DNA of 64,000 bases. Origin: a virus. Its lineage: Duplodnaviria; Heunggongvirae; Uroviricota; Caudoviricetes. Under the pieces are notes generated by a model. That model was given only the letters and a program-made list of their open reading frames with translations, searched no databases and was not told where the DNA came from. The DNA is taken from IMG/VR virus record IMGVR_UViG_3300032167_000010; one strand, given 5' to 3'. Shown here one piece after another: positions 5,009 through 57,787 of the stretch. Position 1 is the stretch's first letter. Every line of letters starts with the position of its first letter. Position numbers and translations under genes: made by a program.

Positions 5009-5039
5009 ATATGTATAAAGATTGTTAAGGAGAGTACAT

Positions 5040-6338
5040 ATGAAAACACTTATTCACTTTAAGGAATTCTGCGACGAAATTACACAAAGTGCGAGCAGAA
5101 AATACAAACAAGAAGTATTAACTAAATATAAAGATGATGAAGTAATTAAGAAATATCTTAAGATTGCTTATGATCCTTATGAGGTATACGGAATTTCTAC
5201 TAAGAAGCTTTCTAAAGGTATTGCTGGAATGACCCTATACACTTTTGATACTATCCTCGAACTCTTTGATTACTTAAAAGTACATAACACAGGCAGAGAC
5301 TGCGATGTTAAATTATGTCAAGCAACATTAGAAGTTGTATATTCGGCGTTTGAGGGCTGTACTTTACTTCTTAAAGAACTTATCTGTAAAGATTTGAGTA
5401 TCGGGTGTGATGCGAAGACCATTAACTCTGTAATGCCTAATCTAATTCCTACGTTTGATGTACAACTCGCCAATAAATACTTCGATAAGCCTGATTACGT
5501 AGAAGGAAAGGAATTTGCTATTACTACGAAGATAGACGGCGGAAGAATTATTGCTATAAAGGAAAATGGCCAAGTTTCATTTTTCACTCGTGCTGGACAA
5601 AGATACGAAGGATTAGTTGATCTCGAAAAAGAAATGCTTGACCGAATTCCGGACAATTTCGTTTTTGATGGTGAGATTACTTTACTTGACTACAAGAGCT
5701 ATGATTCTAAAGACGCTTATAAGCAGGCAATGAAGATTACTAGAGCGGACGGCGAAAAGCATGGAGTTAAGATGCTTGTCTTCGATTGTATGTCTGCGGA
5801 AGAGTTTCGTAAGCAACACTGTCTGGCTGGTTGGTATGTAAGAAGAACGTTAGTAGAAAGTATTTTCAATCTTGCTGGAGACCTTACATATTTCGAACTT
5901 CTTCCAGTATTGTATCAAGGAACTGATACTTCTAAGATTACAGAATTGTTAGATGCCGAGATTGCTCGTGGCCAAGAAGGTATAATGATTAACATTTGCG
6001 ACGCGAAGTACGAATTCAAAAGAACGAACTCACTTCTTAAAGTAAAGAAGATGAATACCCTCGACCTTCAAATCATCGGCTTCGAAGAAGGATCTGGAAG
6101 ACTTGCCGGAACGTTAGGAGCTATCTTAGTTAGATACAAAGATGGAAACATCGTAAAAGTCGGCTCTGGATTTACGGACTGGTTGAGAGAAGAGATTTGG
6201 AAAAATCAAGGAAAGTATTTAGACACTATCTGCGAGATCCAGTATTTTGAAGAGACTACTAATCAAGACGGCGGAATTTCACTTCGCTTCCCTATCTTCA
6301 AAGATTTCAGAACTGACAAGCTTGAGGCCGACTTCTAA
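5040..6338 (+). CDS. lig: ATP-dependent DNA ligase
   Basis: motif I TKIDGGRII (KxDGxR), motif IV QEGIMI, motif V LLKVKK; ORF track 5022..6338 with ATG after AAGGAGAG. Confidence 0.8.
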   Translation: MKTLIHFKEFCDEITQSASRKYKQEVLTKYKDDEVIKKYLKIAYDPYEVYGISTKKLSKGIAGMTLYTFDTILELFDYLKVHNTGRDCDVKLCQATLEVVYSAFEGCTLLLKELICKDLSIGCDAKTINSVMPNLIPTFDVQLANKYFDKPDYVEGKEFAITTKIDGGRIIAIKENGQVSFFTRAGQRYEGLVDLEKEMLDRIPDNFVFDGEITLLDYKSYDSKDAYKQAMKITRADGEKHGVKMLVFDCMSAEEFRKQHCLAGWYVRRTLVESIFNLAGDLTYFELLPVLYQGTDTSKITELLDAEIARGQEGIMINICDAKYEFKRTNSLLKVKKMNTLDLQIIGFEEGSGRLAGTLGAILVRYKDGNIVKVGSGFTDWLREEIWKNQGKYLDTICEIQYFEETTNQDGGISLRFPIFKDFRTDKLEADF

Positions 6339-13304: not shown

Positions 13305-13493
13305 ATGGATATATTTAGTCAACGCAGTAATGAACTTCAAAAAGCGTATGAAGAAGGAATAATCCACGGTGTAGAAACCGTGTGTGCTGAACTAACTGAA
13401 ACTTTTAAAGATATTCCAATGTGGGGATCTGTAGCAGTATATCATATCAATAAGTTGTTAGAAAACTTTAATAAGGAGAAAGACGCCAGATGA
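13305..13493 (+). CDS. hypothetical protein
   Basis: ORF track; SD AAAGGAGAA. Confidence 0.5.
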   Translation: MDIFSQRSNELQKAYEEGIIHGVETVCAELTETFKDIPMWGSVAVYHINKLLENFNKEKDAR

Positions 13494-13738
13494 GAAAACC
13501 TGAAATAATCGAAACTTCCGAAATTTCGCCATGTCCGTTTTGTGGTAATACCAAACTTAAGGTAGATAGTAAGCACAATGGTCATTGGTCTACTGTTGGA
13601 ACACACTCTGCTACTGTAAGATGCACTAAGTGTCATGCCAGAGGTCCGACTGCATCGTGTAAAGTATCCCCTGAACTTTATGGTGCAGATGATGCTACTA
13701 AACAGAAAGCAATAGAACTTTGGAATAAGAGGATTTAA
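13490..13738 (+). CDS. Lar-like zinc-finger protein (possible restriction alleviation)
   Basis: SPCPFCGN...CTKCHARG double Cys pairs typical of the Lar family; ATGA overlap with upstream gene. Confidence 0.45.
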   Translation: MRKPEIIETSEISPCPFCGNTKLKVDSKHNGHWSTVGTHSATVRCTKCHARGPTASCKVSPELYGADDATKQKAIELWNKRI

Positions 13739-14484: not shown

Positions 14485-14698
14485 AGAAATAAAGTATTGG
14501 ATTATTAAGAATCCTGACACTGGACTTTACTACAGAGGTAAGGGAGAAAACCGTTGGGGTAAGTACTACAATCAAGCGTCTATCTTTAGAATTAGAGGGC
14601 AAGTAGAAGAATCCTGTGAGTGGATTAATAGATGCCATCGTAATGGTGAGAAGGCTGAAATTGTAGAAATTAAAATTATAGAAATTAGTAATAATTAA
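14474..14698 (+). CDS. hypothetical protein
   Basis: ORF track; SD GAGGTG. Confidence 0.5.
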   Translation: MENKEIKYWIIKNPDTGLYYRGKGENRWGKYYNQASIFRIRGQVEESCEWINRCHRNGEKAEIVEIKIIEISNN

Positions 14699-14707
14699 CA
14701 AAAAGAA

Positions 14708-14722
14708 ATCGTATAATATAAT
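14708..14722 (+). promoter_or_regulatory. middle-class extended -10 promoter (cgTATAATATAAT)
   Basis: TATAAT 14712-14717 with no -35 at the expected spacing. Confidence 0.35.
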
Positions 14723-14745
14723 ATAAAACATTGGAGGATTTAATT

Positions 14746-14928
14746 ATGAGTATTTATGGTAAATATGAAACTTATAAAATTGTATACTATCCTAAAATTC
14801 AAAATAACGGTCAAATGGGAGTTGCTCTTGTAGAAGCTGGAGACTGGTCGCACGCAATGACTCTTTTCCAAGAACAATATGCCGGACAATTCCACACTGT
14901 AAAGAGCTGTGAAAAATTACTCGGCTAA
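14746..14928 (+). CDS. hypothetical protein
   Basis: ORF track 14731..14928; ATG after TGGAGGA. Confidence 0.5.
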   Translation: MSIYGKYETYKIVYYPKIQNNGQMGVALVEAGDWSHAMTLFQEQYAGQFHTVKSCEKLLG

Positions 14929-14957
14929 TTTAGAAAATTACAGCAAAATGTAAAAAG

Positions 14958-14976
14958 TTTTACTGTATAATATAAT
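14958..14976 (+). promoter_or_regulatory. middle-class extended -10 promoter (cTGTATAATATAAT)
   Basis: TGTATAAT 14964-14971. Confidence 0.45.
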
Positions 14977-14977
14977 A

Positions 14978-15128
14978 GAAAATGCCGCGGGGAATAACTA
15001 CTTTTGATATATCTCTTATCGTTTTCTTTTGTAAGTGTTCCTTCATTCTCCTCCTTAAACATAAACATTCTCCGTGGCTTCCACATAATTATTTAAAAAG
15101 ACCTGCTGTTTTAGTGGGTCTTTTTTCT
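14978..15128 (+). ncRNA. candidate ~150-nt small RNA (promoter + terminator unit without ORF)
   Basis: starts just downstream of TGTATAAT; ends at hairpin gacctgctgttttagtgggtc + T6 (15098-15128); internal ccttcattCTCCTCCttaaac anti-SD-like motif; 5' gccgcgg pairs with 3' ccgtggc. Confidence 0.4.
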
Positions 15129-15175
15129 ACCATTTATTGTATACTATAGTATTATGAAATTTGGAGGATTAACAA

Positions 15176-15364
15176 ATGAGTAAGTACACTACATATTATA
15201 ATAGTAGACAGACGATGTATAGAGATCTAGCGACTAATTGGATGAAGTACGTAGAAGAACATGGGATTACGAAACGTCAGATGCACGGGATGTCTATCTT
15301 CTTTACTAATATCGCTAGAAGATTCGGATTAATGAAAGACTTCCGAGACATCGGAGTTATTTAA
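15176..15364 (+). CDS. hypothetical protein
   Basis: ORF track; SD TGGAGGA. Confidence 0.5.
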   Translation: MSKYTTYYNSRQTMYRDLATNWMKYVEEHGITKRQMHGMSIFFTNIARRFGLMKDFRDIGVI

Positions 15365-15391
15365 TTTTTTTCAAGAACTTCTTAAAAACAG

Positions 15392-15420
15392 TTTACAAAT
15401 TCTACCAAATGTGATATAAT
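15392..15420 (+). promoter_or_regulatory. early-class promoter
   Basis: TTTACA 15392-15397; TGaTATAAT ending 15420. Confidence 0.7.
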
Positions 15421-15453
15421 ATAGGTAGAATAAAAGTTAAGGAGAAATTACCG

Positions 15454-15828
15454 ATGCTTGAAATTATTAAAGAACGTAAAGTAAGAATCGAAAAAGAATA
15501 CTACATTAACTTTGACTGTAAGGCTGACGATAGTTGCGGATTTATTTTCCCTGCTAATCCAGATGAAACTCTTGCGTTGGATAAGATGCCGGAAGAAGCG
15601 AGGGCTAACTATTATACCTGTGAAATGAACGTAGACTTATACAATCGTTGGTTTGAAGAACGCGAAGTAAAAGTAGTTGACTATGCTGTGGGAAAATGTA
15701 GATGTGGTGCCAAAGTCGAACTAACTGACGATGCTTGGATGGGAGCAGTACAGTGTGAGAAGTGTGGTAAGTGGTACAACATCTACGGACAAGAACTCAG
15801 AGACCCGAAGTATTGGGAGGAGGATTAA
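15454..15828 (+). CDS. Zn-ribbon protein
   Basis: ORF track; CRCG..17..CEKCG; SD AAGGAGAA. Confidence 0.55.
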   Translation: MLEIIKERKVRIEKEYYINFDCKADDSCGFIFPANPDETLALDKMPEEARANYYTCEMNVDLYNRWFEEREVKVVDYAVGKCRCGAKVELTDDAWMGAVQCEKCGKWYNIYGQELRDPKYWEED

Positions 15829-15829
15829 G

Positions 15830-16081
15830 ATGAATAGATACCTTATCTTTTCTATTACCATAGCCGAAGATGATCTAAAACATCTTCCTGAGAAATCATG
15901 GTACAATCATAACTACTATGAAATAACCGACTGGAACGACTATCTAATTCCCGAGAAGTGTAATATACTCTTTGAGGAGTGTGAAGATGATGGACCCGGT
16001 GCTTACTATCACTTGGGATACTTTGAGGGTGAACAATTTAAGTCTATGTTTACTTGGTATGAAGATGAAGCATTGATTTAA
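15830..16081 (+). CDS. hypothetical protein
   Basis: ORF track 15731..16081; ATG after GGGAGGAGGA. Confidence 0.5.
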   Translation: MNRYLIFSITIAEDDLKHLPEKSWYNHNYYEITDWNDYLIPEKCNILFEECEDDGPGAYYHLGYFEGEQFKSMFTWYEDEALI

Positions 16082-16120
16082 AAATAATTTAAAAATTTTT
16101 AAAAAACTACTCAAAAACAG

Positions 16121-16149
16121 TTTACAAAATTTGGTAAACATGATATAAT
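16121..16149 (+). promoter_or_regulatory. early-class promoter
   Basis: TTTACA 16121-16126; TGaTATAAT ending 16149. Confidence 0.7.
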
Positions 16150-16182
16150 ATATATAAAGAATAAATAAAAGAGGTACATATT

Positions 16183-16428
16183 ATGCAGTCAACAAGAATC
16201 GCAGATACAAATGAAATTAACAGAAGGTGCAGTGAAGTCTTTGATATGCAAGAAGGCGACTTCGTTTGGGGAATCTTCCTAACTGATGACGGTCAATTGT
16301 TAGTTGAAATGGAAGAGATTACAGAAGACGGTGATAGTTCTGGCATCTTTAACTTTGAACCTAATATGGAAGAAAGACCTGAGGCACTCGCTTACTTGAT
16401 GGGCGAGAGAAACGATTTTAACGATTAA
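16183..16428 (+). CDS. hypothetical acidic protein
   Basis: ORF track; SD AAGAGGTA. Confidence 0.55.
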   Translation: MQSTRIADTNEINRRCSEVFDMQEGDFVWGIFLTDDGQLLVEMEEITEDGDSSGIFNFEPNMEERPEALAYLMGERNDFND

Positions 16429-16468
16429 AAAATAATTAAAAAATTTTTGAAAAAGTAGTTAAAAACAG

Positions 16469-16497
16469 TTTACAAATCTCACCAAATATGTTATAAT
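16469..16497 (+). promoter_or_regulatory. early-class promoter
   Basis: TTTACA 16469-16474; TGtTATAAT ending 16497. Confidence 0.7.
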
Positions 16498-16533
16498 ATA
16501 TGTAATGAATAAAGTTAATAAGGAGAACATATT

Positions 16534-16752
16534 ATGTTTTATTACAAAGTAGAATCAAGTCATTGGCCAAACAATTTAGAATTCAAATCTAAAATTAAAA
16601 TGGAAGTAGGACAATGTTTCCGAATTACTTCTCACGATGGTTTCAAATCGTATCCAACTAGATTTAAGGTATTAAGTGTTTCAGATACTCCTGAATATAC
16701 TGGAACTGTTGTTGAAATTCTAGATGCCGATTTAACTGTTGAACAGTTCTAA
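16534..16752 (+). CDS. hypothetical protein
   Basis: ORF track; SD AAGGAGAA. Confidence 0.55.
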   Translation: MFYYKVESSHWPNNLEFKSKIKMEVGQCFRITSHDGFKSYPTRFKVLSVSDTPEYTGTVVEILDADLTVEQF

Positions 16753-16818
16753 CTTTAATCACACTTATCCAAACTCGTTTTGGTTAATCTAATTTTCATA
16801 TTTTCAACTTTCGGAAAA

Positions 16819-16852
16819 AGACTGATAGAGAAAATCTATTGGTCTTTTTTCT
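16819..16852 (+). terminator. rho-independent terminator
   Basis: agactgatag-N7-ctattggtct (two G-U wobbles) plus T6. Confidence 0.55.
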
Positions 16853-16860
16853 TTTACTTA

Positions 16861-16889
16861 TTTACAGACCTCCGGAACCGTGCTATAAT
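16861..16889 (+). promoter_or_regulatory. early-class promoter (divergent spacer sequence, same geometry)
   Basis: TTTACA 16861-16866; TGcTATAAT ending 16889; 17 bp spacer. Confidence 0.6.
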
Positions 16890-16916
16890 TATCTAGAAAG
16901 TTGGAGGTGAAAGTAG

Positions 16917-17105
16917 ATGATTAGTTATTTAAGACTCAAAGATATGTGTAGAACTGTCTGGTCTTTATTAACTGAAGAAGAGCGGGACTACTATCTAGAA
17001 AATGTCGGGATGATTAAATTTATAAAAGATGTTTCTAACTTACTTGGTTTGACACCAGAATATCTTTTAGTTGAACTATATGATGAGATACTAGAACAAT
17101 TGTAA
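16917..17105 (+). CDS. hypothetical protein
   Basis: ORF track; SD TTGGAGGTGA. Confidence 0.5.
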   Translation: MISYLRLKDMCRTVWSLLTEEERDYYLENVGMIKFIKDVSNLLGLTPEYLLVELYDEILEQL

Positions 17106-17109
17106 AAGA

Positions 17110-17142
17110 AGAGATCGGTCGTTTGTTGACCGGTCTTTTTAA
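17110..17142 (+). terminator. rho-independent terminator
   Basis: gatcggtc-gtttgtt-gaccggtc plus T-run. Confidence 0.6.
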
Positions 17143-17186
17143 TTAAAAAAAATTAAAAAATTTTCAAAAAAAGTTATTAAAAACAG

Positions 17187-17215
17187 TTTACAAATTTTGT
17201 TAAATGTGATATAAT
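17187..17215 (+). promoter_or_regulatory. early-class promoter
   Basis: TTTACA 17187-17192; TGtgaTATAAT ending 17215. Confidence 0.7.
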
Positions 17216-17271
17216 ATATATGTAAATAAGTGAATGACACTTATAAAAAATAAAAAGGACGGAAACACATT

Positions 17272-17475
17272 ATGGAAAAAAAGTATGAAATTAGTTATTT
17301 TAGAAGTACAGGAAAACCTGACGAAGTCGTAGACAGAGACACGATGGAAGATATTGTTTATGAGTTAGAAAGTTTTGAAAGAGACGATGTAAACATGATA
17401 CACGAACTTGAACCTGACGGTAGTTTAGGAAAAACTATTTGGACTGAAGAAGAAGGTTTATTCGTACTTCTTTAA
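17272..17475 (+). CDS. hypothetical acidic protein
   Basis: ORF track; SD AAAGGACGGA. Confidence 0.5.
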   Translation: MEKKYEISYFRSTGKPDEVVDRDTMEDIVYELESFERDDVNMIHELEPDGSLGKTIWTEEEGLFVLL

Positions 17476-17502
17476 TTAGTTCTATCTAATAAATTTACAT
17501 AG

Positions 17503-17540
17503 AATAAAGTCTTATTAAATTAAGACTTTATTTTTTTTCA
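17503..17540 (+). terminator. rho-independent terminator
   Basis: aataaagtctta-ttaaat-taagactttatt plus T8. Confidence 0.65.
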
Positions 17541-17558
17541 AAAACTTGTTAAAAACAG

Positions 17559-17587
17559 TTTACTTTTCCGGTAAAATATGGTATAAT
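17559..17587 (+). promoter_or_regulatory. early-class promoter (-35 TTTACT variant)
   Basis: TTTACT 17559-17564; TGgTATAAT ending 17587. Confidence 0.6.
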
Positions 17588-17615
17588 ATATATAGAATAA
17601 AGAGGAGATTTTATT

Positions 17616-17852
17616 ATGATAAGTTTTGAAGATTATTTTTGGGATTGTAGAATAAAGAGTTATGATAAGAAAGTTCTAAATGGTAAATTTCCAATTAGAA
17701 AACTTGTAAATAGATGTCAAAAAGTTAATTGGGACAAAATGGAAGAAGTTTCTAAATTAAAAAGTTTTCAAATTTATAACTATTTAGAAAACAATCACGA
17801 CTTATTAGAAAAACTTTGGGAGTTAGAATTTGGAGTGAGTATTCATTCTTAA
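17616..17852 (+). CDS. hypothetical protein
   Basis: ORF track; SD AAGAGGAGA. Confidence 0.5.
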   Translation: MISFEDYFWDCRIKSYDKKVLNGKFPIRKLVNRCQKVNWDKMEEVSKLKSFQIYNYLENNHDLLEKLWELEFGVSIHS

Positions 17853-17866
17853 TAGGAGGAAATAAA

Positions 17867-18283
17867 ATGATTAAAGAAATTGTTAAAGACGCAGAGTTCT
17901 TAACACAAAAATCCGAACAAGTAAGCATAGAAGAAGCACAAGAAATTATTACTGACCTTCTAGATACTGCTAATTATCACATCGACAATTGTTGTGGTTT
18001 GGCAGCACCTCAGATTGGAGTACATAAAAGAGTAATAGTTATTAGAAATGGAAATACTTTCTTCCCTATGATTAACCCTGTGGTTATTAAGAAGGATGGT
18101 AGAAAGTTTGTTAACAACGAAGGTTGCCTTTCTTTGGAAGGAACTAGATCGGTAGACCGTTACTCTTCGGTCCTTGTTGGATATCTTGATAAGTCTGGCA
18201 AGAGAATAGTTAAAACTTTTAACGGACTTCTTGCTATCATTATTCAACATGAGACTGACCATCTTAATGGGATACTTATTTAG
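17867..18283 (+). CDS. def: peptide deformylase
   Basis: PDF motifs GLAAPQIG, EGCLS, QHETDHLNG (HExxH); ATG after TAGGAGGAA; ORF track 17816..18283. Confidence 0.8.
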   Translation: MIKEIVKDAEFLTQKSEQVSIEEAQEIITDLLDTANYHIDNCCGLAAPQIGVHKRVIVIRNGNTFFPMINPVVIKKDGRKFVNNEGCLSLEGTRSVDRYSSVLVGYLDKSGKRIVKTFNGLLAIIIQHETDHLNGILI

Positions 18284-22041: not shown

Positions 22042-22048
22042 TTAATAG

Positions 22049-22077
22049 TTTACAAAACTTCTTTCTTGTAGTATAAT
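22049..22077 (+). promoter_or_regulatory. early-class promoter (isolated copy)
   Basis: TTTACA 22049-22054; TATAAT 22072-22077; 17 bp spacer. Confidence 0.6.
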
Positions 22078-22160
22078 GTATCTGTATTCTGTTGAGCTGA
22101 TTTATATTAGTATCATTACTCAAAGGGGCTGACTATCTTAATTGGTAGTCGGTCTTTTTA
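22078..22160 (+). ncRNA. candidate ~80-nt small RNA (promoter + terminator unit without ORF)
   Basis: no SD or ORF between TATAAT (22077) and terminator hairpin gactatc-ttaatt-ggtagtc + T5 (22130-22160). Confidence 0.35.
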
Positions 22161-22163
22161 TTT

Positions 22164-22173
22164 GCTAAATTAT
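22164..22173 (+). promoter_or_regulatory. late-type promoter motif (copy 2)
   Basis: tatttGCTAAATTATTTaga 44 nt upstream of ATG 22217. Confidence 0.5.
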
Positions 22174-31439: not shown

Positions 31440-32591
31440 ATGGTAGGTTTTATTTTTGGTATCATTATTTTACTAGCCGGCATTATTACCGGCATATGTT
31501 TAACTACTTGTAAAAGAGAAGTTGAAACAAAAGAGTATGTACTAGACGAGAACGGCTCGCCTATTAGAAACAATTGGGGTGAACCTAAGTACATAACCAA
31601 GACAAGTGTTAAAAAGCCTTATAAAAAGTATAGTGGCTTTGCTTATGCTGCAGGCATCTTTTTAGGTATCTTATTAACGTTCTTTGGCTGCATGGCTTCT
31701 GTATCTACCGGAAACACTGGTGTCGTAACTACTTTTGGTAAAGTTGAAAATTATACTTTAGAAGCAGGTTTTCACCTTAAAGCACCTTGGCATACGGTTA
31801 CTGAAATGGACAATAGAGTGCAGAAGACTACGGTAGAATTAAGCTGCTTTAGCTCTGACATTCAAGAAGTGTCTATGAAGTATACCCTTAATTATCAAAT
31901 CGATAAAGCTAACGCACAAGAGATTTATAGAACGGTAGGTGTTAATTATTATGCTACTATCGTAGAGCCTAATATTGCTGAGGCAGTTAAAGTTGCTACT
32001 GCACAGTACACTGCAGAACAATTGGTACAAACGAGAAGTAACCTTGCGAAAGATATTGAGACGTTGTTAGAAGAAAACTTAGGACGTTTTAATATTAAAG
32101 TATCTTCTACTGCTATCGAGGATATGGACTTTACTGATGCATTTACTAACGCAGTTGAAGCTAAGCAAGTAGCTGAACAAAAGAAAAAACAAGCCGAAAT
32201 CGAACAAGCTCAAGCATTGGCTCAAGCAGAAAATGATAAGAAGATTGCAGAGACTAATGCAAAAGCAAATGCAGAAGTAGCTAAGATTCAAGCTGAGGCT
32301 GATATGGAAGTTGCGAAGATTGCTGCTGACTCTGCTGAATATCAAGGTAAGAAAGAAGCCGCTATTGCTCTTCAACGTTTAGCAAGTATCAATGGTTGGA
32401 CTGTAGTTATGGATGAAGAAACAGGACTTAATAAACTCTATAAACCTGATGGTTCTGAAGTAAATGAAGAAGAATTAAAAGCCGGCGCTGAAAGACTTAT
32501 TGAATATTACTATACTCAACAGTGGGATGGTAAGTTACCTGAAACTGTTCTTGGTTCAGACGATAACCTTCTAATTGGCGTAGGAAATTAA
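31440..32591 (+). CDS. SPFH/Band-7 (prohibitin/stomatin/HflKC-like) membrane protein
   Basis: two N-terminal TM segments, SPFH core, Ala/Glu/Gln/Lys-rich coiled-coil tail; SD AAAGGAGTA. Confidence 0.8.
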   Translation: MVGFIFGIIILLAGIITGICLTTCKREVETKEYVLDENGSPIRNNWGEPKYITKTSVKKPYKKYSGFAYAAGIFLGILLTFFGCMASVSTGNTGVVTTFGKVENYTLEAGFHLKAPWHTVTEMDNRVQKTTVELSCFSSDIQEVSMKYTLNYQIDKANAQEIYRTVGVNYYATIVEPNIAEAVKVATAQYTAEQLVQTRSNLAKDIETLLEENLGRFNIKVSSTAIEDMDFTDAFTNAVEAKQVAEQKKKQAEIEQAQALAQAENDKKIAETNAKANAEVAKIQAEADMEVAKIAADSAEYQGKKEAAIALQRLASINGWTVVMDEETGLNKLYKPDGSEVNEEELKAGAERLIEYYYTQQWDGKLPETVLGSDDNLLIGVGN

Positions 32592-35849: not shown

Positions 35850-36050
35850 ATGAACAATACAAGATGTATGGTAAATTTTAATTGTGAAAAATGTATAAAA
35901 GGTGATGTATGCCCTCATAAAAGTAAAGTTGCTGAGCTTGTCGAAAATTTTTCTGATAAGGTATGTGGGCATCCATTTAATGCTTCATTAACTTGTTGGG
36001 CATATATAAACAAATCTAAATCAACAACTGGATTAATTAAAGGTGAGTAA
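35850..36050 (+). CDS. Cys-rich small protein
   Basis: ORF track 35829..36050; ATG after GAGGTGAAAT. Confidence 0.45.
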   Translation: MNNTRCMVNFNCEKCIKGDVCPHKSKVAELVENFSDKVCGHPFNASLTCWAYINKSKSTTGLIKGE

Positions 36051-36051
36051 T

Positions 36052-36267
36052 ATGTGTAAATATTGTGATTGTGTAGATATTCCCATGGCTGGAAAATATG
36101 GAAATGGAATTGAAAGTATAGAGAGTGAAAGTGTTTTCGCTCATATACAACAAACACCAGATAATAAATTTTTATTTGGAATTGATGAGGATGTTTTTTA
36201 CCATTTTGAAATTAACTACTGCCCTATGTGTGGTAGAGATTTAAGTTATAAATCTGAGGTGAAGTAA
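36052..36267 (+). CDS. Zn-ribbon small protein
   Basis: ORF track 36043..36267; CKYCDC..CPMCG. Confidence 0.45.
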   Translation: MCKYCDCVDIPMAGKYGNGIESIESESVFAHIQQTPDNKFLFGIDEDVFYHFEINYCPMCGRDLSYKSEVK

Positions 36268-36268
36268 T

Positions 36269-36523
36269 ATGGCTTGGAATGAAATTGGACTTATTATACT
36301 TTTCTGTTCAGTTATAAGTGTTTTCACTCATTGGTTTGTTTGGGCTATTCTAGAAGAGTTTATAGATAAGCCTCCATTTTTATATACTCCTGGCACATTA
36401 TATCTCCATACAAAAATGAATTGGTTTGGCTGTATTATGATTTATATTATTCTGTTTCCATTTGGTTTTGTATTTGAAATAGGTGGATTTTTAAGATGGT
36501 TATTTACAGTAGGGAGGAGATGA
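36269..36523 (+). CDS. small membrane protein, NWFGC family copy 1
   Basis: ORF track; conserved NWFGC and C-terminal VGRR. Confidence 0.55.
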   Translation: MAWNEIGLIILFCSVISVFTHWFVWAILEEFIDKPPFLYTPGTLYLHTKMNWFGCIMIYIILFPFGFVFEIGGFLRWLFTVGRR

Positions 36524-36527
36524 TAAC

Positions 36528-36788
36528 ATGGCTTGGTATCAATATTTATTATGTTTTTATATAGCATTCTCAATAGTAACATTTATAATTGTTTTGGCAA
36601 TATTTATTGACGAGCCGTATGAATGGATAATTCAATCTCCAATTCAATTATATGAAAAAACAAATATGAATTGGTTTGGCTGCATTTTTATTTGGTTTTT
36701 AGAATTTTTATTAATGCCAGTACCTGTGATTTTGTCATTAATCTGGGACTTTTTTAACTGGTTAGTTCATGTTGGGAGGAAAGATTAA
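36528..36788 (+). CDS. small membrane protein, NWFGC family copy 2
   Basis: ORF track; NMNWFGC, ..VGRKD. Confidence 0.55.
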   Translation: MAWYQYLLCFYIAFSIVTFIIVLAIFIDEPYEWIIQSPIQLYEKTNMNWFGCIFIWFLEFLLMPVPVILSLIWDFFNWLVHVGRKD

Positions 36789-36789
36789 T

Positions 36790-36972
36790 ATGTGTTTATT
36801 TAGAAAAAAAGAAAAACAATTATATGAAATAACTTATGAATCTTATGGTATTAACAGAGAAATTTTTGCAGCAAAAAGTCCAGAACAAGCAATAAGAAAA
36901 TTTCATCGAAAACATTATTCATGCTGGGATGTAATAGATATAAAATTATATAAAATGTTAGAGGTAGAATAA
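36790..36972 (+). CDS. hypothetical protein
   Basis: ORF track 36769..36972; ATG after GGGAGGAAAG. Confidence 0.45.
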   Translation: MCLFRKKEKQLYEITYESYGINREIFAAKSPEQAIRKFHRKHYSCWDVIDIKLYKMLEVE

Positions 36973-36973
36973 T

Positions 36974-37210
36974 ATGGTTTGGTGGTTAATTTTAATAATT
37001 TTATATCTTATATCACATGCAATAGGAGTAGCTCAAATTTCGTACACAGAAGAAAAATTTGATTTTGCCTTTCTCTCACCTTATACCTTATATAAATATT
37101 GTAAAGTAAATATGTTTGGTGCAATATTCTTATGGTTATTGCATTTAGCAGTTACTCCTATTTATGCGTTGATAGGTTTATTTATTTGGTTGTGTACAGT
37201 AGGGAGGTAA
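36974..37210 (+). CDS. small membrane protein, NWFGC family copy 3 (divergent: NMFGA)
   Basis: ORF track; ends ..CTVGR. Confidence 0.5.
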   Translation: MVWWLILIILYLISHAIGVAQISYTEEKFDFAFLSPYTLYKYCKVNMFGAIFLWLLHLAVTPIYALIGLFIWLCTVGR

Positions 37211-37216
37211 AATAAT

Positions 37217-37540
37217 ATGACATTAAGATTAGCAATAAAATCAATTGAAACTTATAATTGTATCGAAGGAAAAGATGGTTTATACAATCATAGTTGGGTT
37301 CCAGTAAGTGCTATTGTAGATAAATTACCATTTAATAAACTTATGGAAAAATATCCTAAATTAAACATAATCTATGAAGGAATTTTTAATAACGGAAAAC
37401 TTCTCAACTATACAATAAAGGGACCTAAAAAGCTTTGCAATGAAGTTATGATAAGCTTAACGAGCATAGCTGAATTAGCAAAATATTTTGATATAATGAC
37501 AGTTGGTAAGTATGATTACTATTGGAAGAAAGGGTGGTAA
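37217..37540 (+). CDS. hypothetical protein
   Basis: ORF track; SD GGGAGGTAAAA. Confidence 0.5.
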   Translation: MTLRLAIKSIETYNCIEGKDGLYNHSWVPVSAIVDKLPFNKLMEKYPKLNIIYEGIFNNGKLLNYTIKGPKKLCNEVMISLTSIAELAKYFDIMTVGKYDYYWKKGW

Positions 37541-37542
37541 TA

Positions 37543-37751
37543 TGAAATATATTATTGAATTAGATAAAGATGAATTAAGTTTTTTAAAAGGTATAGTTAG
37601 AGACACACGCTATAAATTACTTGATAAGCTTAGAAATAATATCTTTGATAAAAAATCAATTAACCATATTATTACTCAAACGCTTATATTAAGCGAGAGA
37701 TTAGACAATGTTATTCCTATAGCAGACAAAGCAAATAAAGAGGTGAAATAA
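37543..37751 (+). CDS. hypothetical protein, paralog of 19136..19351
   Basis: ORF track 37503..37751; ATG after AAGGGTGGTAAT. Confidence 0.5.
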
Positions 37752-37752
37752 T

Positions 37753-37944
37753 ATGAAAATATGGAAGATATTAACACAAATATTGATTGATATCCTTGTT
37801 ATGATAGGTTTGTTGTGCTTGATGGTGCATTTAATAATTGCATGGAAACTCAATATAATTACAAGTAGTTTGTTTGGTATTCTTACTGGTGTAGTTATTG
37901 TTACAATATGGTATGTAATATATCTAATATTTTATAAGAGGTAA
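37753..37944 (+). CDS. small membrane protein (2 TM)
   Basis: ORF track; SD AGAGGTGAAA. Confidence 0.5.
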   Translation: MKIWKILTQILIDILVMIGLLCLMVHLIIAWKLNIITSSLFGILTGVVIVTIWYVIYLIFYKR

Positions 37945-37950
37945 GGCAAA

Positions 37951-38139
37951 ATGACAAAAATATTGATACAATATTTACTCTATCTTATTCGTTGGCAACT
38001 TTCTACACCAATATTGGCGATAGTGCTATGGTTATTCGGAATAGGCGTTTCACCATTTATACCAACTGTAATAGCAAATTTGATTGGTGGATTAATATTT
38101 TTTTGGATAGATAAATGGATATTTAATAAAAACAGTTAA
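37951..38139 (+). CDS. small membrane protein (2 TM)
   Basis: ORF track; SD AGAGGTAAGG. Confidence 0.5.
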   Translation: MTKILIQYLLYLIRWQLSTPILAIVLWLFGIGVSPFIPTVIANLIGGLIFFWIDKWIFNKNS

Positions 38140-56110: not shown

Positions 56111-57787
56111 ATGAAAATGAATGATTTTAAAATTAAACGTGGCCTATCATCAGTAGTATTTATCGAGCCGGGAGTGATTAATCCACAACTAGTTATTGAA
56201 GAAGGCTGTTGGTATCTTTGTACTGACACCGCAGAACTTTATTTAGGTGTTCAGATAGACACTGGCTTAACATTAAAGAAAATTAATGGTCATAATGCAG
56301 TAGATATCCCAACTCAATCACCTGACGGTGGAGATGGTGAAGCTCCTAGAGGTTTAATCGGTGCTTATATAGATGAAGCTGGAGAGCTTTGTGTAATTTT
56401 TTCAGATAATACTGAAGAATCGCTTGGTGTGGTTGTTGGCAAAAACGGTATTGACGGTAAAGATGGTACCAACGGTATCGATGGCCGCGATGGTATTACA
56501 CCACATATCGGTGATAATGGAAATTGGTACCTTGGAGAACTAAACACCGGAGTTTCTGCAGCCGGTACTGAGGGCCCACAAGGACCTCAAGGTGAAGCTG
56601 GTCCCCAAGGTAGTCAAGGTGAAAAAGGCGAAAAAGGTGACGCTTTTACATACGAAGATTTTACAGAAGAGCAATTAGCTGCTCTTAAAGGTGAACAAGG
56701 TCCCACAGGTAAAGACGGTTATACTCCCGTTAAAGGTGTTGACTATTTTGATGGAGCTGCGGGTAAAGACGGTAAAGACGGTTTAACTACCGCTGTAAAG
56801 GTTAACGGTACTGTTTATGAACACGACAACGGCGTTATTGAATTACCTAACTTTATTACTGAACATCAATCTTTAGCAGACTATGCCAAAAAGACAGACT
56901 TATTTAGTAAGTCTTATAATGATTTAACTGATAAGCCTACTATTCCTTCTATTGAAGGCCTAGCGACAGAAGATTATATAAATAATGCTATTGCAAATAT
57001 CAAACATCCTGCTAGTCCGACAAAAGTAAGTGATTTAGAAAATGACGCAGGCTATATTACTTCTGCGGATATTCCTGAAACTGACTTAAGTAATTATTAC
57101 ACAAAGACAGAAGTTGATAATAAAATACTTGACATAAAAGCTAATGATGTACCTTTTACAAGCGCTAAATTTGTTGCAAAAGCGTTTGGCGGATTTGCCG
57201 TCGGTGATGATTTAAACGGCTTAACTGTTGCTCAATTATTTGCTAAATTATTAGAGCTAACTGATACTAAACCTGGTGAAAATCCTGACGTCCCTGAGGT
57301 TCCAACTGAGCCAGACGGCGTAATAGATGAGATTATAACCGACAAGCTTCCTATGTATTCTGTAAATGCTGAGGGTGAAGTTATTGAGATATCTTATGAT
57401 GATGTAATTACTTATACAGAAGCTACCGCAAGTGAACAACCTACAGAGTCTGGTTTTTATCAAATAACAAATGAAACTGGCGAAGTTATTGAGTCTGGCT
57501 ACCAAGAATTAACTGCAGAAAACCCAAATACTATTTATATTATTGCATTACCTAAAGGCGTTGATTTTAATACAATGGTTACTACTCAAACTTATGACAT
57601 GCTAGAAGGTAAATGGAAAGATGATTCTCTCGAAATGTCTAGAGACTATGACACAATAAGCGGTATTTGTGAAGCACTTTCTATTGATACTTCACACATT
57701 GACCTTAAAAAATATATTCTTTGGGCAGATTTAACTTCAGGACAAGGACCTAGTGGTAAGATACATAGATTTATTATAAAGGAATAA
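56111..57787 (+). CDS. collagen-like repeat tail-fibre protein
   Basis: ~25 G-X-Y triplets (GKNGIDGKDGTNGIDGRDG...GPQGPQGEAGPQGSQGEKGEKG); SD TAAGGAGTT; alternative ATG 56117. Confidence 0.7.
   Translation: MKMNDFKIKRGLSSVVFIEPGVINPQLVIEEGCWYLCTDTAELYLGVQIDTGLTLKKINGHNAVDIPTQSPDGGDGEAPRGLIGAYIDEAGELCVIFSDNTEESLGVVVGKNGIDGKDGTNGIDGRDGITPHIGDNGNWYLGELNTGVSAAGTEGPQGPQGEAGPQGSQGEKGEKGDAFTYEDFTEEQLAALKGEQGPTGKDGYTPVKGVDYFDGAAGKDGKDGLTTAVKVNGTVYEHDNGVIELPNFITEHQSLADYAKKTDLFSKSYNDLTDKPTIPSIEGLATEDYINNAIANIKHPASPTKVSDLENDAGYITSADIPETDLSNYYTKTEVDNKILDIKANDVPFTSAKFVAKAFGGFAVGDDLNGLTVAQLFAKLLELTDTKPGENPDVPEVPTEPDGVIDEIITDKLPMYSVNAEGEVIEISYDDVITYTEATASEQPTESGFYQITNETGEVIESGYQELTAENPNTIYIIALPKGVDFNTMVTTQTYDMLEGKWKDDSLEMSRDYDTISGICEALSIDTSHIDLKKYILWADLTSGQGPSGKIHRFIIKE

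What the first reader, a model, noticed from the sequence alone, without database searches (positions are those of the whole stretch)
14978..15128. Promoter-to-terminator unit with no ORF: candidate sRNA carrying a CCUCC anti-Shine-Dalgarno motif
Seen in sequence: the 246-nt gap between 14928 and 15176 has a class-2 promoter (cTGTATAATATAAT, 14964-14971), ~150 nt with no plausible ORF or SD on the + strand, then a clean terminator (gacctgctgttttagtgggtc + T6, 15098-15128). The next gene's own TTGTATACTATAGTATTATG and SD follow. The putative transcript contains 'ccuucauuCUCCUCCuuaaac' (15040-15060), complementary to the GGAGG SDs used throughout this genome and reminiscent of a 16S 3'-end decoy. 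Its 5' 'gccgcgg' (14984-14990) can pair with 3' 'ccgtggc' (15072-15078). Inference: a phage sRNA that could sequester SD sequences or modulate translation. I cannot assign it to a known family.
Basis: partly seen in the sequence, partly recalled or inferred. Interest (0 to 1): 0.6.

Follow-up and report, generated by a model that had tools for sequence, protein, structure and literature searches.

The report
Phage small RNA displaying anti-Shine-Dalgarno motifs
An uncultivated giant phage, probably infecting a Gram-positive bacterium, carries a roughly 145-base non-coding RNA gene, conserved in its relatives, that exposes copies of the sequence ribosomes use to recognise mRNAs, so it probably blocks ribosome-binding sites.

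Summary
Window 14929-15175 is a gene-free gap. It contains a consensus phage promoter (14964-14976), a 12-bp helix P1 (14984-14995 / 15067-15078), an open pyrimidine-rich loop with CUCCUCCUU (15048-15056), and an intrinsic terminator (15095-15126).

The + strand folds well beyond chance (z = -5.45). The loop is the most pyrimidine-rich 80-mer in the 64 kb.

Eighteen diverged relatives from metagenomic phage contigs (neighbouring protein 35-66% identical) keep the same unit.
- P1 covaries: 13 of 15 pairs change on both sides, and 0 of 500 shuffles reach the observed values. RNAalifold recovers P1 independently.
- The loop interior varies freely in length and sequence.
- Every member has 1-5 CCUCC and no GGAGG. 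In total there are 50 CCUCC against 3.9 ± 1.9 expected.
- The motifs are predicted to be unpaired.
- Motif flanks often reproduce the 16S rRNA 3' tail (UCACCUCCUUUCUA).

No conserved ORF exists on either strand. There is no Rfam match and no match in cultured phages.

Best reading: a new family of trans-acting phage sRNAs that pair with Shine-Dalgarno sites. This is the mechanism of the Gram-positive CU-rich sRNAs (LhrC, RsaE/RoxS, RNAIII), but here the seed is the exact anti-SD sequence. The function is inferred; targets and expression are untested.

The parts
14964..14976 (+). Promoter TGTATAATATAAT, with two overlapping TATAAT hexamers at 14966-14971 and 14971-14976. The predicted transcription start is about 14978-14984, at or just before the first base of P1.
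   Evidence: Exact match to a recurring + strand phage motif. The same motif sits at the same place in 16 of 18 relatives. The start site is inferred from spacing, not measured.
14984..14995 (+). P1 5' arm, GCCGCGGGGAAU.
   Evidence: MFE and centroid folds. Covariation across 19 loci.
14996..15066 (+). Open, pyrimidine-rich loop enclosed by P1 (71 nt) with only weak local hairpins. It includes UGAUAUAUCUCUUAU (15005-15019), which is shared with the nearest relatives L011 and L016.
   Evidence: No consensus structure inside P1. Most pyrimidine-rich 80-mer in the window. Subfamily alignment.
15048..15056 (+). Anti-Shine-Dalgarno motif CUCCUCCUU. CCUCCUUA (15050-15057) equals the last 8 nt of an E. 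coli-type 16S rRNA (from my own knowledge).
   Evidence: Unpaired probability 0.91-0.93. CCUCC is present in every relative and enriched about 12-fold.
15067..15078 (+). P1 3' arm, AUUCUCCGUGGC. Two G·U pairs mean the helix is only complete on the + strand RNA.
15095..15126 (+). Intrinsic terminator: AAAAA-GACCUGC-UGUUUUA-GUGGGUC-UUUUUU. The stem contains two wobble pairs that would be A·C mismatches on the minus strand.
   Evidence: Folds (hairpin -14.0 kcal/mol). A hairpin plus U-run is found at the equivalent place in most relatives, with different stem sequences; the automatic bounds were wrong for 3 of the 18. Not listed by the simple scan.
15138..15175 (+). Context only, not part of the RNA: the 62-aa gene's own promoter-like motif TGTATACTATAGT (15138-15150) and its SD GGAGG (15163-15167) ahead of the ATG at 15176.
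   Evidence: A promoter at this place is conserved in most relatives.

Best explanation
This is a stand-alone gene for a small non-coding RNA of about 145 nt, roughly 14979/14984 to 15126 on the + strand, in an uncultivated phage of about 222 kb that probably infects a Bacillota host.

The gene sits among early-type small genes and is transcribed from a consensus phage promoter. Its 5' end is locked into a 12-bp helix (P1) with a segment 83 nt downstream. The RNA ends at an intrinsic terminator. P1 holds open a long, unstructured, pyrimidine-rich loop that displays CUCCUCCUU. Relatives add further copies in a 3' single-stranded domain, in hairpin loops and in terminator loops.

These CCUCC seeds are the same sequence as the anti-SD core of 16S rRNA. 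The proposed mechanism is that they pair with GGAGG Shine-Dalgarno sites of mRNAs and so keep 30S subunits off them. That would repress or re-programme translation during infection.

Shown here: the gene anatomy, strand, structure, conservation, motif enrichment and motif accessibility.

Inferred: that it is transcribed as a discrete RNA, that it acts in trans by SD pairing, and which mRNAs (host, phage or both) it acts on.
For: - Origin: the flanking proteins lie on a 221,766-bp metagenomic contig. The DNA ligase is closest to those of Geobacillus, Clostridioides, Brevibacillus and Bacillus phages.
- Fold: z = -5.45 on the + strand and -1.86 on the - strand.
- Conservation: 18 further distinct loci keep the unit directly upstream of the 62-aa gene homologue, or one inserted gene away in L015.
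- P1 covariation: 86% of cells paired, 13 of 15 pairs changed on both sides, 0 of 500 shuffles as high, slid registers 34-56%.
- Independent structure prediction: RNAalifold on an unguided MAFFT alignment returns only P1, and all 11 pairs show compensatory changes.
- Strand: covariance model R1 scores the + strand 50-84 bits for the 16 best-scoring loci (29-39 bits for L014, L020 and L021) against at most 34 on the minus strand. It finds one copy per locus. It finds none in 1.06 Mb of unrelated viral DNA chosen to contain matching arms.
- Motif enrichment: 50 CCUCC against 3.9 ± 1.9 in dinucleotide shuffles (maximum 10). CCCUC, UCCCC, CUCCC and CCCCU occur 3-8 times. No GGAGG occurs inside any member.
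- Accessibility: motif unpaired probability is 0.82 against 0.48 for other positions.
- Pairing potential: the window seed pairs with the phage's translation-initiation regions as well as a 16S-type tail does (-10.2 against -9.5 kcal/mol mean). The whole loop pairs better with initiation regions than with random segments (-15.0 against -10.3).
- Precedent: CU-rich UCCC motifs in loops, single strands and terminator loops of LhrC, RNAIII, RsaE, SprD and FsrA block SD sites (PMC4132741).
Against: - There are no expression data. The transcription start and the 3' end are predictions.
- CCUCC would pair with almost any strong SD, including the phage's own (46 of 142 crude gene calls have GGAGG). 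Specificity, and the benefit to the phage, are therefore unclear.
- No outstanding target emerged. The best initiation region, at 36528, is only about 2.6 sd from the mean.
- Two relatives (L011, L016) lack a recognisable promoter both upstream of the RNA and upstream of the 62-aa gene. In those phages the element sits inside an operon transcript. That fits a 3'UTR-derived sRNA, but it fits a cis element as well.
- The P1 register used for one search was anchored by hand, though reproduces it without guidance.
- Sequences are phylogenetically related, so the shuffle statistics overstate independence.
Confidence: 0.58

Rival explanations
1. The RNA is a decoy for the 16S rRNA 3' tail, or a protein sponge. 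It would titrate a protein or nuclease that recognises the single-stranded 16S 3' end or pyrimidine tracts. Candidates are a 16S 3'-end maturation or decay factor, a ribosomal protein such as bS1 or bS21, or a defence or toxin RNase.
For: - Motif flanks go beyond the CCUCC core towards the 16S tail. Position -1 is A in 25 of 48 and position -2 is C in 20 of 48, against backgrounds of 0.23 and 0.21.
- Up to 14 contiguous nt are identical to UCACCUCCUUUCUA.
- In L015, L020 and L021 a motif follows the P1 3' strand within 2-3 nt. This resembles helix 45 followed by the tail (the resemblance is from my own knowledge of 16S).
- Multiple redundant sites are typical of sponges.
Against: - The extended flanks are equally predicted by pairing to long Firmicute SDs (AGAAAGGAGGUGA), so they do not discriminate between the two readings.
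- The window copy has only CCUCCUU(A).
- No candidate binding protein was identified. Both neighbours have no meaningful family match; only a marginal unknown-function PHROG hit at E = 0.008 for the 60-aa protein.
Confidence: 0.15
2. The element is a cis-acting leader or attenuator for the downstream 62-aa gene. Its terminator would gate read-through, and in read-through transcripts the CCUCC tract would sequester that gene's GGAGG.
For: - The element lies upstream of the 62-aa gene in all 19 loci, directly except in L015 where one gene is inserted, even where the upstream gene differs (L017).
- L011 and L016 have no recognisable promoter between the terminator and the gene.
- Whole-gap folds of L003 and L007 pair a CCUCC with the downstream SD.
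Against: - 16 of 18 relatives, and the window, have a separate promoter after the terminator.
- The interior has no conserved aptamer-like core or alternative anti-terminator.
- There is no co-variation between each RNA and its own downstream initiation region: cognate -15.44 and non-cognate -15.44 kcal/mol.
- In the window, the neighbouring genes rank 94th and 123rd of 142 as predicted targets.
Confidence: 0.12
3. The real feature is on the minus strand. The CCTCC strings would be GGAGG ribosome-binding sites of one or more small minus-strand genes (for example a type I toxin), or of a minus-strand RNA rich in SD sites.
For: - In the window, AAGGAGGAGAATG on the minus strand precedes a 28-aa ORF (14960-15046).
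- Several relatives also have a minus-strand start codon 4-11 nt after a GGAG-type motif.
Against: - These ORFs differ in presence, start codon, length (10-56 aa) and sequence. Four relatives have none.
- DNA conserved between the window and L011 is read in different frames, as seen directly from the sequences.
- The SD-to-start spacing is 3-4 nt in the window, against 8-9 nt for the flanking genes (read).
- The peptides are not hydrophobic.
- The 3'-domain motifs have no start codon downstream on the minus strand (sequence).
- P1 and the terminators carry G·U pairs that become A·C on the minus strand.
- The covariance model strongly prefers the + strand.
- Every ORF of 200 aa or more and all crude gene calls in the window are on the + strand.
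Confidence: 0.03
4. There is no dedicated function. The region would be an ordinary intergenic spacer made of a promoter, a terminator and drifted filler.
For: AT-rich phage intergenic regions often hold orphan promoters and terminators. A single CCTCC in 150 nt is weak evidence on its own.
Against: - A covarying 11-15-bp long-range helix is kept across relatives whose neighbouring protein is only 35-66% identical.
- The motif is enriched 12-fold in a motif-specific way.
- The purine/pyrimidine skew is reversed relative to the whole window.
Confidence: 0.02

Closest known systems
LhrC1-5 of Listeria monocytogenes (CU-rich, SD-blocking sRNAs)
   Same: Both are short, terminator-ended sRNAs of low-GC Gram-positive systems. 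Both carry several redundant C/U-rich seeds placed in a hairpin loop, in a single-stranded stretch and in the terminator loop, which bind the SD region and block translation (PMC4132741). Relatives L012, L025 and L027 even carry the motif in the terminator loop, and L020 and L021 carry it in a 5' hairpin loop.
   Different: The seed here is CCUCC(UUUC), the exact 16S anti-SD, not CUCCC/UCCC. The architecture is a long-range closing helix around a 50-170-nt open loop. The RNA is encoded by a large phage, not by the host chromosome. There is no sequence or Rfam similarity.
RsaE/RoxS, S. aureus RNAIII, SprD and FsrA (the UCCC / C-rich-region sRNAs of Bacillota)
   Same: The logic is the same: unpaired C-rich motifs pair with G-rich SD sequences (cited in PMC4132741; PMC6158497 and PMC8216469 are listed).
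   Different: These are different families. No covariance-model match reached gathering score in the window or in 16 relatives. Those sRNAs have defined regulons and C-runs rather than a literal anti-SD sequence.
c4 antisense RNA of phages P1 and P7
   Same: It is a phage-encoded RNA whose loop sequences pair around the ribosome-binding site of an mRNA to block translation (review PMC12197685).
   Different: c4 targets one specific phage mRNA (ant) through gene-specific complementarity, in temperate phages of enterobacteria. Here the seed is generic for any strong SD, and the family is unrelated in sequence and structure.
The 3' terminus of 16S rRNA (anti-SD tail, ...GAUCACCUCCUUUCUA-3' in Bacillus-type rRNA; from my own knowledge)
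   Same: Up to 14 contiguous identical nucleotides in relatives, and CCUCCUUA in the window. The motif is displayed single-stranded, sometimes directly 3' of a helix.
   Different: It is not rRNA. There is no helix 44/45 homology and no Rfam SSU hit. The motif is internal rather than 3'-terminal and is present in 1-5 copies.
AbsR25 (Rfam RF02607), the best sub-threshold Rfam hit
   Same: A partial alignment over 15026-15125, mostly the U-rich tail and the terminator.
   Different: It scores 30.9 bits against a gathering score of 47, and AbsR25 is an Acinetobacter sRNA. I treat it as a chance match driven by the terminator.

Membership tests
Stand-alone, terminator-ended bacterial or phage sRNA gene (generic class) | Own promoter immediately upstream | tested here: met
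   TGTATAATATAAT at 14964-14976 matches the recurring phage motif exactly. It is conserved in 16 of 18 relatives and absent in L011 and L016. Promoter activity was not measured.
Stand-alone, terminator-ended bacterial or phage sRNA gene (generic class) | Intrinsic terminator at the 3' end | tested here: met
   A 14-bp hairpin plus U6 at 15095-15126. An equivalent hairpin plus U-run, with different stem sequences, is found in most relatives; the automatic bounds were wrong for 3 of the 18. The simple scan missed it.
Stand-alone, terminator-ended bacterial or phage sRNA gene (generic class) | No conserved protein-coding potential | tested here: met
   No ORF with an SD is conserved in presence, frame or sequence on either strand across 18 loci. 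Gene callers left the gap empty in all annotated relatives.
Stand-alone, terminator-ended bacterial or phage sRNA gene (generic class) | Detected as a discrete transcript | not testable with these tools
   No transcriptome data are available.
CU/C-rich SD-blocking sRNAs of Bacillota (LhrC, RsaE/RoxS, RNAIII-type) | Homology to the described families (sequence plus structure) | tested here: not met
   There was no Rfam hit at gathering score in the window or in 16 relatives. A relaxed search gave only sub-threshold, unrelated hits.
CU/C-rich SD-blocking sRNAs of Bacillota (LhrC, RsaE/RoxS, RNAIII-type) | Redundant C-rich motifs exposed in loops or single strands | tested here: met
   Each member has 1-5 CCUCC with unpaired probability 0.82 against 0.48 elsewhere. 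The motif is CCUCC rather than UCCC.
CU/C-rich SD-blocking sRNAs of Bacillota (LhrC, RsaE/RoxS, RNAIII-type) | Pairs with the SD of target mRNAs and inhibits translation | not testable with these tools
   Only predicted duplex energies are available. No standout target was found.
Riboswitch or cis-regulatory leader | Conserved ligand- or factor-binding core, and a terminator/anti-terminator alternative linked to the downstream gene | tested here: not met
   The interior of P1 has no conserved structure and ranges from 51 to 170 nt between the helix cores. A separate promoter follows the terminator in most loci. There is no co-variation with the downstream initiation region and no Rfam hit.
Type I toxin-antitoxin locus | Small hydrophobic toxin ORF overlapped by an antisense RNA | tested here: not met
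   Minus-strand ORFs are not conserved and are hydrophilic. The + strand ORFs lack an SD and are not conserved.
6S RNA, Y RNA and retron msr/msd (other RNAs with a long 5'/3' closing helix) | The family-specific internal structure (central bubble and terminal hairpin; Ro-binding helix; msd stem plus adjacent reverse transcriptase) | tested here: not met
   There are no Rfam matches and no conserved internal structure. The neighbouring genes are small proteins with no meaningful family match and no reverse transcriptase or Ro domain.

The most novel reading that the evidence does not exclude
The RNA is a molecular mimic of the 16S rRNA 3' tail made by a giant phage. By flooding the cell with exposed anti-SD copies, it would compete with ribosomes for Shine-Dalgarno sites genome-wide, or would decoy a factor that acts on the 16S tail. 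This would be an RNA-based way to shut off or re-programme host translation. It would be distinct from gene-specific antisense control and from the protein-based ribosome hijacking described for huge phages.
Probability: 0.2. Interest if true: 0.85.

Novelty: new variant of a known kind. Interest (0 to 1): 0.62.

Why it matters
Few regulatory RNAs are known from virulent phages, and almost none from phages of Gram-positive bacteria. This family would be a clean example, defined entirely by comparative evidence. Its only invariant content is a structural clamp and the ribosome's own mRNA-recognition sequence.

If it acts as proposed, a phage can tune or suppress Shine-Dalgarno-dependent initiation with a small RNA. 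That bears on how large phages take over host translation. It would also supply a compact, portable anti-RBS module for synthetic biology.

The finding also gives a ready covariance model and 19 sequences for annotating metagenomic phage genomes.

Tried and rejected
- Cultured-phage DNA: megablast and blastn of 14500-15700 found no match. tblastn of the 790-aa protein also found none.
- tRNA/tmRNA: no genes in the window.
- Rfam: nothing at gathering score. At E ≤ 10 only sub-threshold hits appeared, the best being AbsR25 at 30.9 bits against 47.
- A single-protein scan of IMG/VR with the 62-aa protein found nothing. My first coordinates for the 60-aa gene were out of frame.
- GTDB genomes hold no homologue of the 62-aa protein, so there is no direct host assignment.
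- An IMG/VR search with a promoter plus 5'-arm pattern found 0 matches.
- Two arm-gap-arm patterns gave 43 and at least 120 matches in IMG/VR. None scored with model R1, so they are chance inverted repeats and serve as a negative control.
- The minus-strand small-gene and type I toxin idea was rejected.
- Regulation of the adjacent genes by specific pairing was rejected. There is no cognate advantage, and the neighbours rank 94th and 123rd of 142.
- A temporal-class hypothesis, with different SD strength in different parts of the window, showed no clear pattern.
- Searching for a second copy in the window with the model found none. The only other intergenic CCTCC (16869) lies in a promoter region after a terminator.
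- Pfam and PHROGs gave no meaningful family match for either neighbour; only a marginal unknown-function PHROG hit at E = 0.008 for the 60-aa protein.
- Literature searches for a phage anti-SD or 16S-mimic sRNA returned nothing comparable.

Full report
**What is there**

The window is part of a 221,766-bp metagenomic contig (ENA ERZ27248446, k141_1405776).
- Every ORF of 200 aa or more is on the + strand.
- GC is about 34% with a strong purine excess on the + strand.
- There is no DNA or tblastn match to cultured phages.
- The ATP-dependent DNA ligase is closest to those of Geobacillus, Clostridioides, Brevibacillus and Bacillus phages, at 37-43% identity. A Bacillota host is therefore likely but not shown.

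The finding lies in the 247-nt gap 14929-15175. The gap separates a 60-aa gene (14746-14928) from a 62-aa gene (15176-15364). Neither protein has a meaningful family match; the 60-aa one has only a marginal hit to a PHROG of unknown function (E = 0.008).

**Checking the observation**

- The promoter string TGTATAATATAAT (14964-14976) is an exact copy of a motif that recurs on the + strand in front of genes.
- The pairing gccgcgg/ccgtggc is real and extends to 12 bp (14984-14995 with 15067-15078).
- The + strand RNA 14978-15134 folds to -38.1 kcal/mol against -21.2 ± 3.1 for dinucleotide shuffles, z = -5.45. The reverse strand gives z = -1.86.
- The terminator is a 14-bp hairpin followed by U6 (15095-15126). 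The simple consensus scan did not list it, probably because A/U pairing absorbs the T-run.
- The segment 15003-15082 is the most pyrimidine-rich 80-mer of the whole 64 kb: 71% against a mean of 44%, sd 5.7%.
- CCTCC occurs only 9 times on the + strand, against 60 for GGAGG.

**Relatives**

The 62-aa protein has homologues at 53-66% identity in the large protein collection. More distant ones, down to 35%, were found in a metagenome scan and in IMG/VR. Fetching their contigs gave 18 further distinct loci.

In every one, a gene-free stretch of 180-400 nt lies upstream of the 62-aa gene. It is directly adjacent except in L015, where one extra gene is inserted. Each stretch contains the following:
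- the same promoter motif, except in L011 and L016;
- a 5' arm built around GCGG;
- a variable pyrimidine-rich interior;
- a complementary 3' arm built around CCGC;
- often a second single-stranded domain;
- a terminator hairpin with a U-run;
- usually a fresh promoter for the 62-aa gene.

**Structure**

I anchored the two arms on their cores without gaps. All 19 loci then form a helix of at least 10 bp in the same register. On that alignment (A3):
- 86% of cells form standard pairs;
- 13 of 15 pairs show changes on both sides;
- none of 500 column shuffles reaches the observed pairing, covariation score or double-change counts;
- sliding the partner by 1-3 columns drops pairing to 34-56%.

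Because I chose that register by eye, I repeated the test without guidance. MAFFT plus RNAalifold on the 19 P1 domains returns exactly this helix and nothing else. It has 11 pairs, every one with compensatory changes. The interior has no consensus structure, and the distance between the helix cores ranges from 51 to 170 nt.

Covariance model R1, built from that alignment, gave these results:
- It scores the + strand 50-84 bits for the 16 best-scoring loci (29-39 bits for L014, L020 and L021) and the minus strand at most 34 bits. It finds one copy per locus and no second copy in the window.
- It finds nothing in 1.06 Mb of IMG/VR DNA that I had selected because it contained matching arm sequences.

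G·U pairs in P1 (16 cells in the core 12 pairs) and in the terminator stems would be A·C mismatches on the other strand (seen directly in the sequences). The functional strand is the + strand.

**The motif**

CCUCC is the second invariant of the family.
- Every member has 1-5 copies and none has GGAGG.
- Across 18 members there are 50 CCUCC, against 3.9 ± 1.9 (maximum 10) in dinucleotide-preserving shuffles.
- The other arrangements of four C and one U occur only 3-8 times. The signal is therefore not just pyrimidine richness.
- The motifs are predicted unpaired: mean probability 0.82 against 0.48 for other positions, and 0.91-0.93 for the window copy.
- They sit in the P1 loop, in a 3' single-stranded domain, in 5' hairpin loops (L020, L021) and in terminator loops (L012, L025; CACCUC in L027).
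- Their flanks lean towards CA-CCUCC-UUUC. Several copies match a Bacillus-type 16S 3' end over 11-14 contiguous nucleotides, for example L025 UCACCUCCUUUCUA (the rRNA sequence is from my own knowledge).

The window copy is the minimal member. It has one CUCCUCCUU inside the loop and no 3' domain. Its closest relatives, L011 and L016, share the loop sequence UGAUAUAUCUCUUAU...UUUUCUUUUGUA...CCUCCUCCUU.

**Excluding coding**

On the minus strand, CCTCC reads as GGAGG. In the window, AAGGAGGAGAATG precedes a 28-aa ORF. Four points argue against a minus-strand gene.
- Across relatives, such ORFs differ in presence, start codon, length (10-56 aa) and sequence. Four loci have none.
- DNA conserved between the window and L011 is read in different frames.
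- The SD-to-start spacing is 3-4 nt, where the flanking genes use 8-9 nt (read).
- The 3'-domain motifs have no start codon behind them.

The + strand ORFs lack an SD and are not conserved. Gene callers left the gap empty in every annotated relative.

**Mechanism**

The anatomy is that of a stand-alone sRNA: a promoter, a 5' end buried in a helix, exposed seeds and an intrinsic terminator. The nearest functional precedent is the group of Gram-positive sRNAs with exposed C/U-rich motifs that pair with SD sequences and block initiation. LhrC has three redundant sites, in a loop, in a single strand and in the terminator loop. RNAIII, RsaE, SprD and FsrA use UCCC (PMC4132741).

I therefore propose that this RNA pairs through CCUCC with GGAGG sites and excludes 30S subunits.
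- Predicted duplexes of the window seed with phage initiation regions are as stable as those of a 16S-type tail: -10.2 against -9.5 kcal/mol.
- The whole loop pairs better with initiation regions than with random segments: -15.0 against -10.3 kcal/mol.

Transcription, trans action and target identity are all inferred. I found no specific target.
- The best initiation region (gene at 36528) is only about 2.6 sd from the mean.
- The adjacent genes rank 94th and 123rd of 142.
- Each RNA pairs no better with its own downstream initiation region than with those of other phages: -15.44 against -15.44 kcal/mol.

A difficulty for the model is that the phage's own genes use strong GGAGG sites (46 of 142 crude calls). 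Selectivity between host and phage mRNAs would have to come from flanks, timing or dosage. The phage prefers GGAGGA (33 of 46), whereas many seeds in relatives complement GGAGGUG. This is suggestive but untested.

**Rivals**

- A 16S-tail decoy or protein sponge fits the extended flank identity and the multiplicity of sites. SD pairing explains both equally well, and no partner protein is evident.
- A cis leader for the 62-aa gene fits the conserved position upstream of that gene and the two promoter-less relatives. It is weakened by the downstream promoter in most loci, by the lack of a conserved core and by the lack of cognate co-variation.
- A minus-strand gene and a functionless spacer are both disfavoured by the results above.

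**Novelty**

There is no Rfam family match and no cultured-phage homologue. A 2025 review of phage sRNAs describes nothing comparable (PMC12197685), and full-text searches for a phage anti-SD or 16S-mimic sRNA found none.

The kind, an SD-occluding sRNA, is known. The variant is new in three ways:
- it is encoded by a large, probably virulent phage;
- its seed is the literal anti-SD sequence, present in 1-5 copies;
- its architecture is a covarying clamp around a free-form loop.

I rate it a new variant of a known kind, of moderate to high interest. It would be of higher interest if it proves to be a global competitor for SD sites or a mimic of the 16S tail.

Noticed in passing
window 22045-22165: A second promoter-to-terminator unit without an ORF. 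TTTACA-17-TATAAT is followed by an RNA of about 85 nt with a small hairpin and a 16-bp terminator (GGGGCUGACUAUC...GGUAGUCGGUCUUUUU). The fold is -25.3 kcal/mol, z = -4.95. There is no + strand ORF of 20 aa or more within the unit. It has no CCUCC.
   Followed up: partly
L011 1300-1503 and L016 1255-1503: In these two relatives the RNA begins about 20 nt after the stop codon of the 60-aa gene. No TATAAT promoter is visible, and none precedes the 62-aa gene either. There the element would be part of an operon transcript, either as a 3'UTR-derived sRNA or as a cis element.
   Followed up: partly
L012 ~1185-1215, L025 ~240-268, L027 ~1395-1420: The terminator hairpin loops themselves carry the motif (UUUUCCUCCGG, UUUCCUCCAG, UUCACCUCGG). 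This echoes the seed in the LhrC terminator loop.
   Followed up: no
L020 ~515-545 and L021 ~1225-1255: The most distant relatives have an extra 5' hairpin whose loop is (U)AAACCUCCCUCUG or UACACCUCCCUCUA. Their P1 loop is GU-rich rather than pyrimidine-rich, and their CCUCC copies are moved outside P1.
   Followed up: no
window ~17867-18283 and ~18295 onward (L001 5692-6189): A peptide deformylase gene and a YodL-like gene lie about 3 kb downstream of the RNA. This is another translation-related function in the same early-type region (Pfam labels).
   Followed up: no
window 13490-13738; 5022-6338; 31440-32591; 56111-57787: Recognisable genes elsewhere in the window: a Lar-like restriction-alleviation protein, an ATP-dependent DNA ligase, an SPFH/Band-7 protein and a collagen-repeat protein that is probably a fibre.
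   Followed up: no
window 16001-18000 and 36001-38000: Local GC dips to 0.285 and 0.275. The second has AT skew near zero, unlike the rest of the window. The first region has several intergenic gaps of about 165 nt holding terminators and promoters.
   Followed up: no
window, genome-wide: Among phage SD sites with GGAGG, the next base is A in 33 of 46. The 16S-complementary U appears in 9 of 46. The phage's own ribosome-binding sites may therefore differ systematically from the perfect complement of the UCACCUCC seeds seen in relatives.
   Followed up: partly
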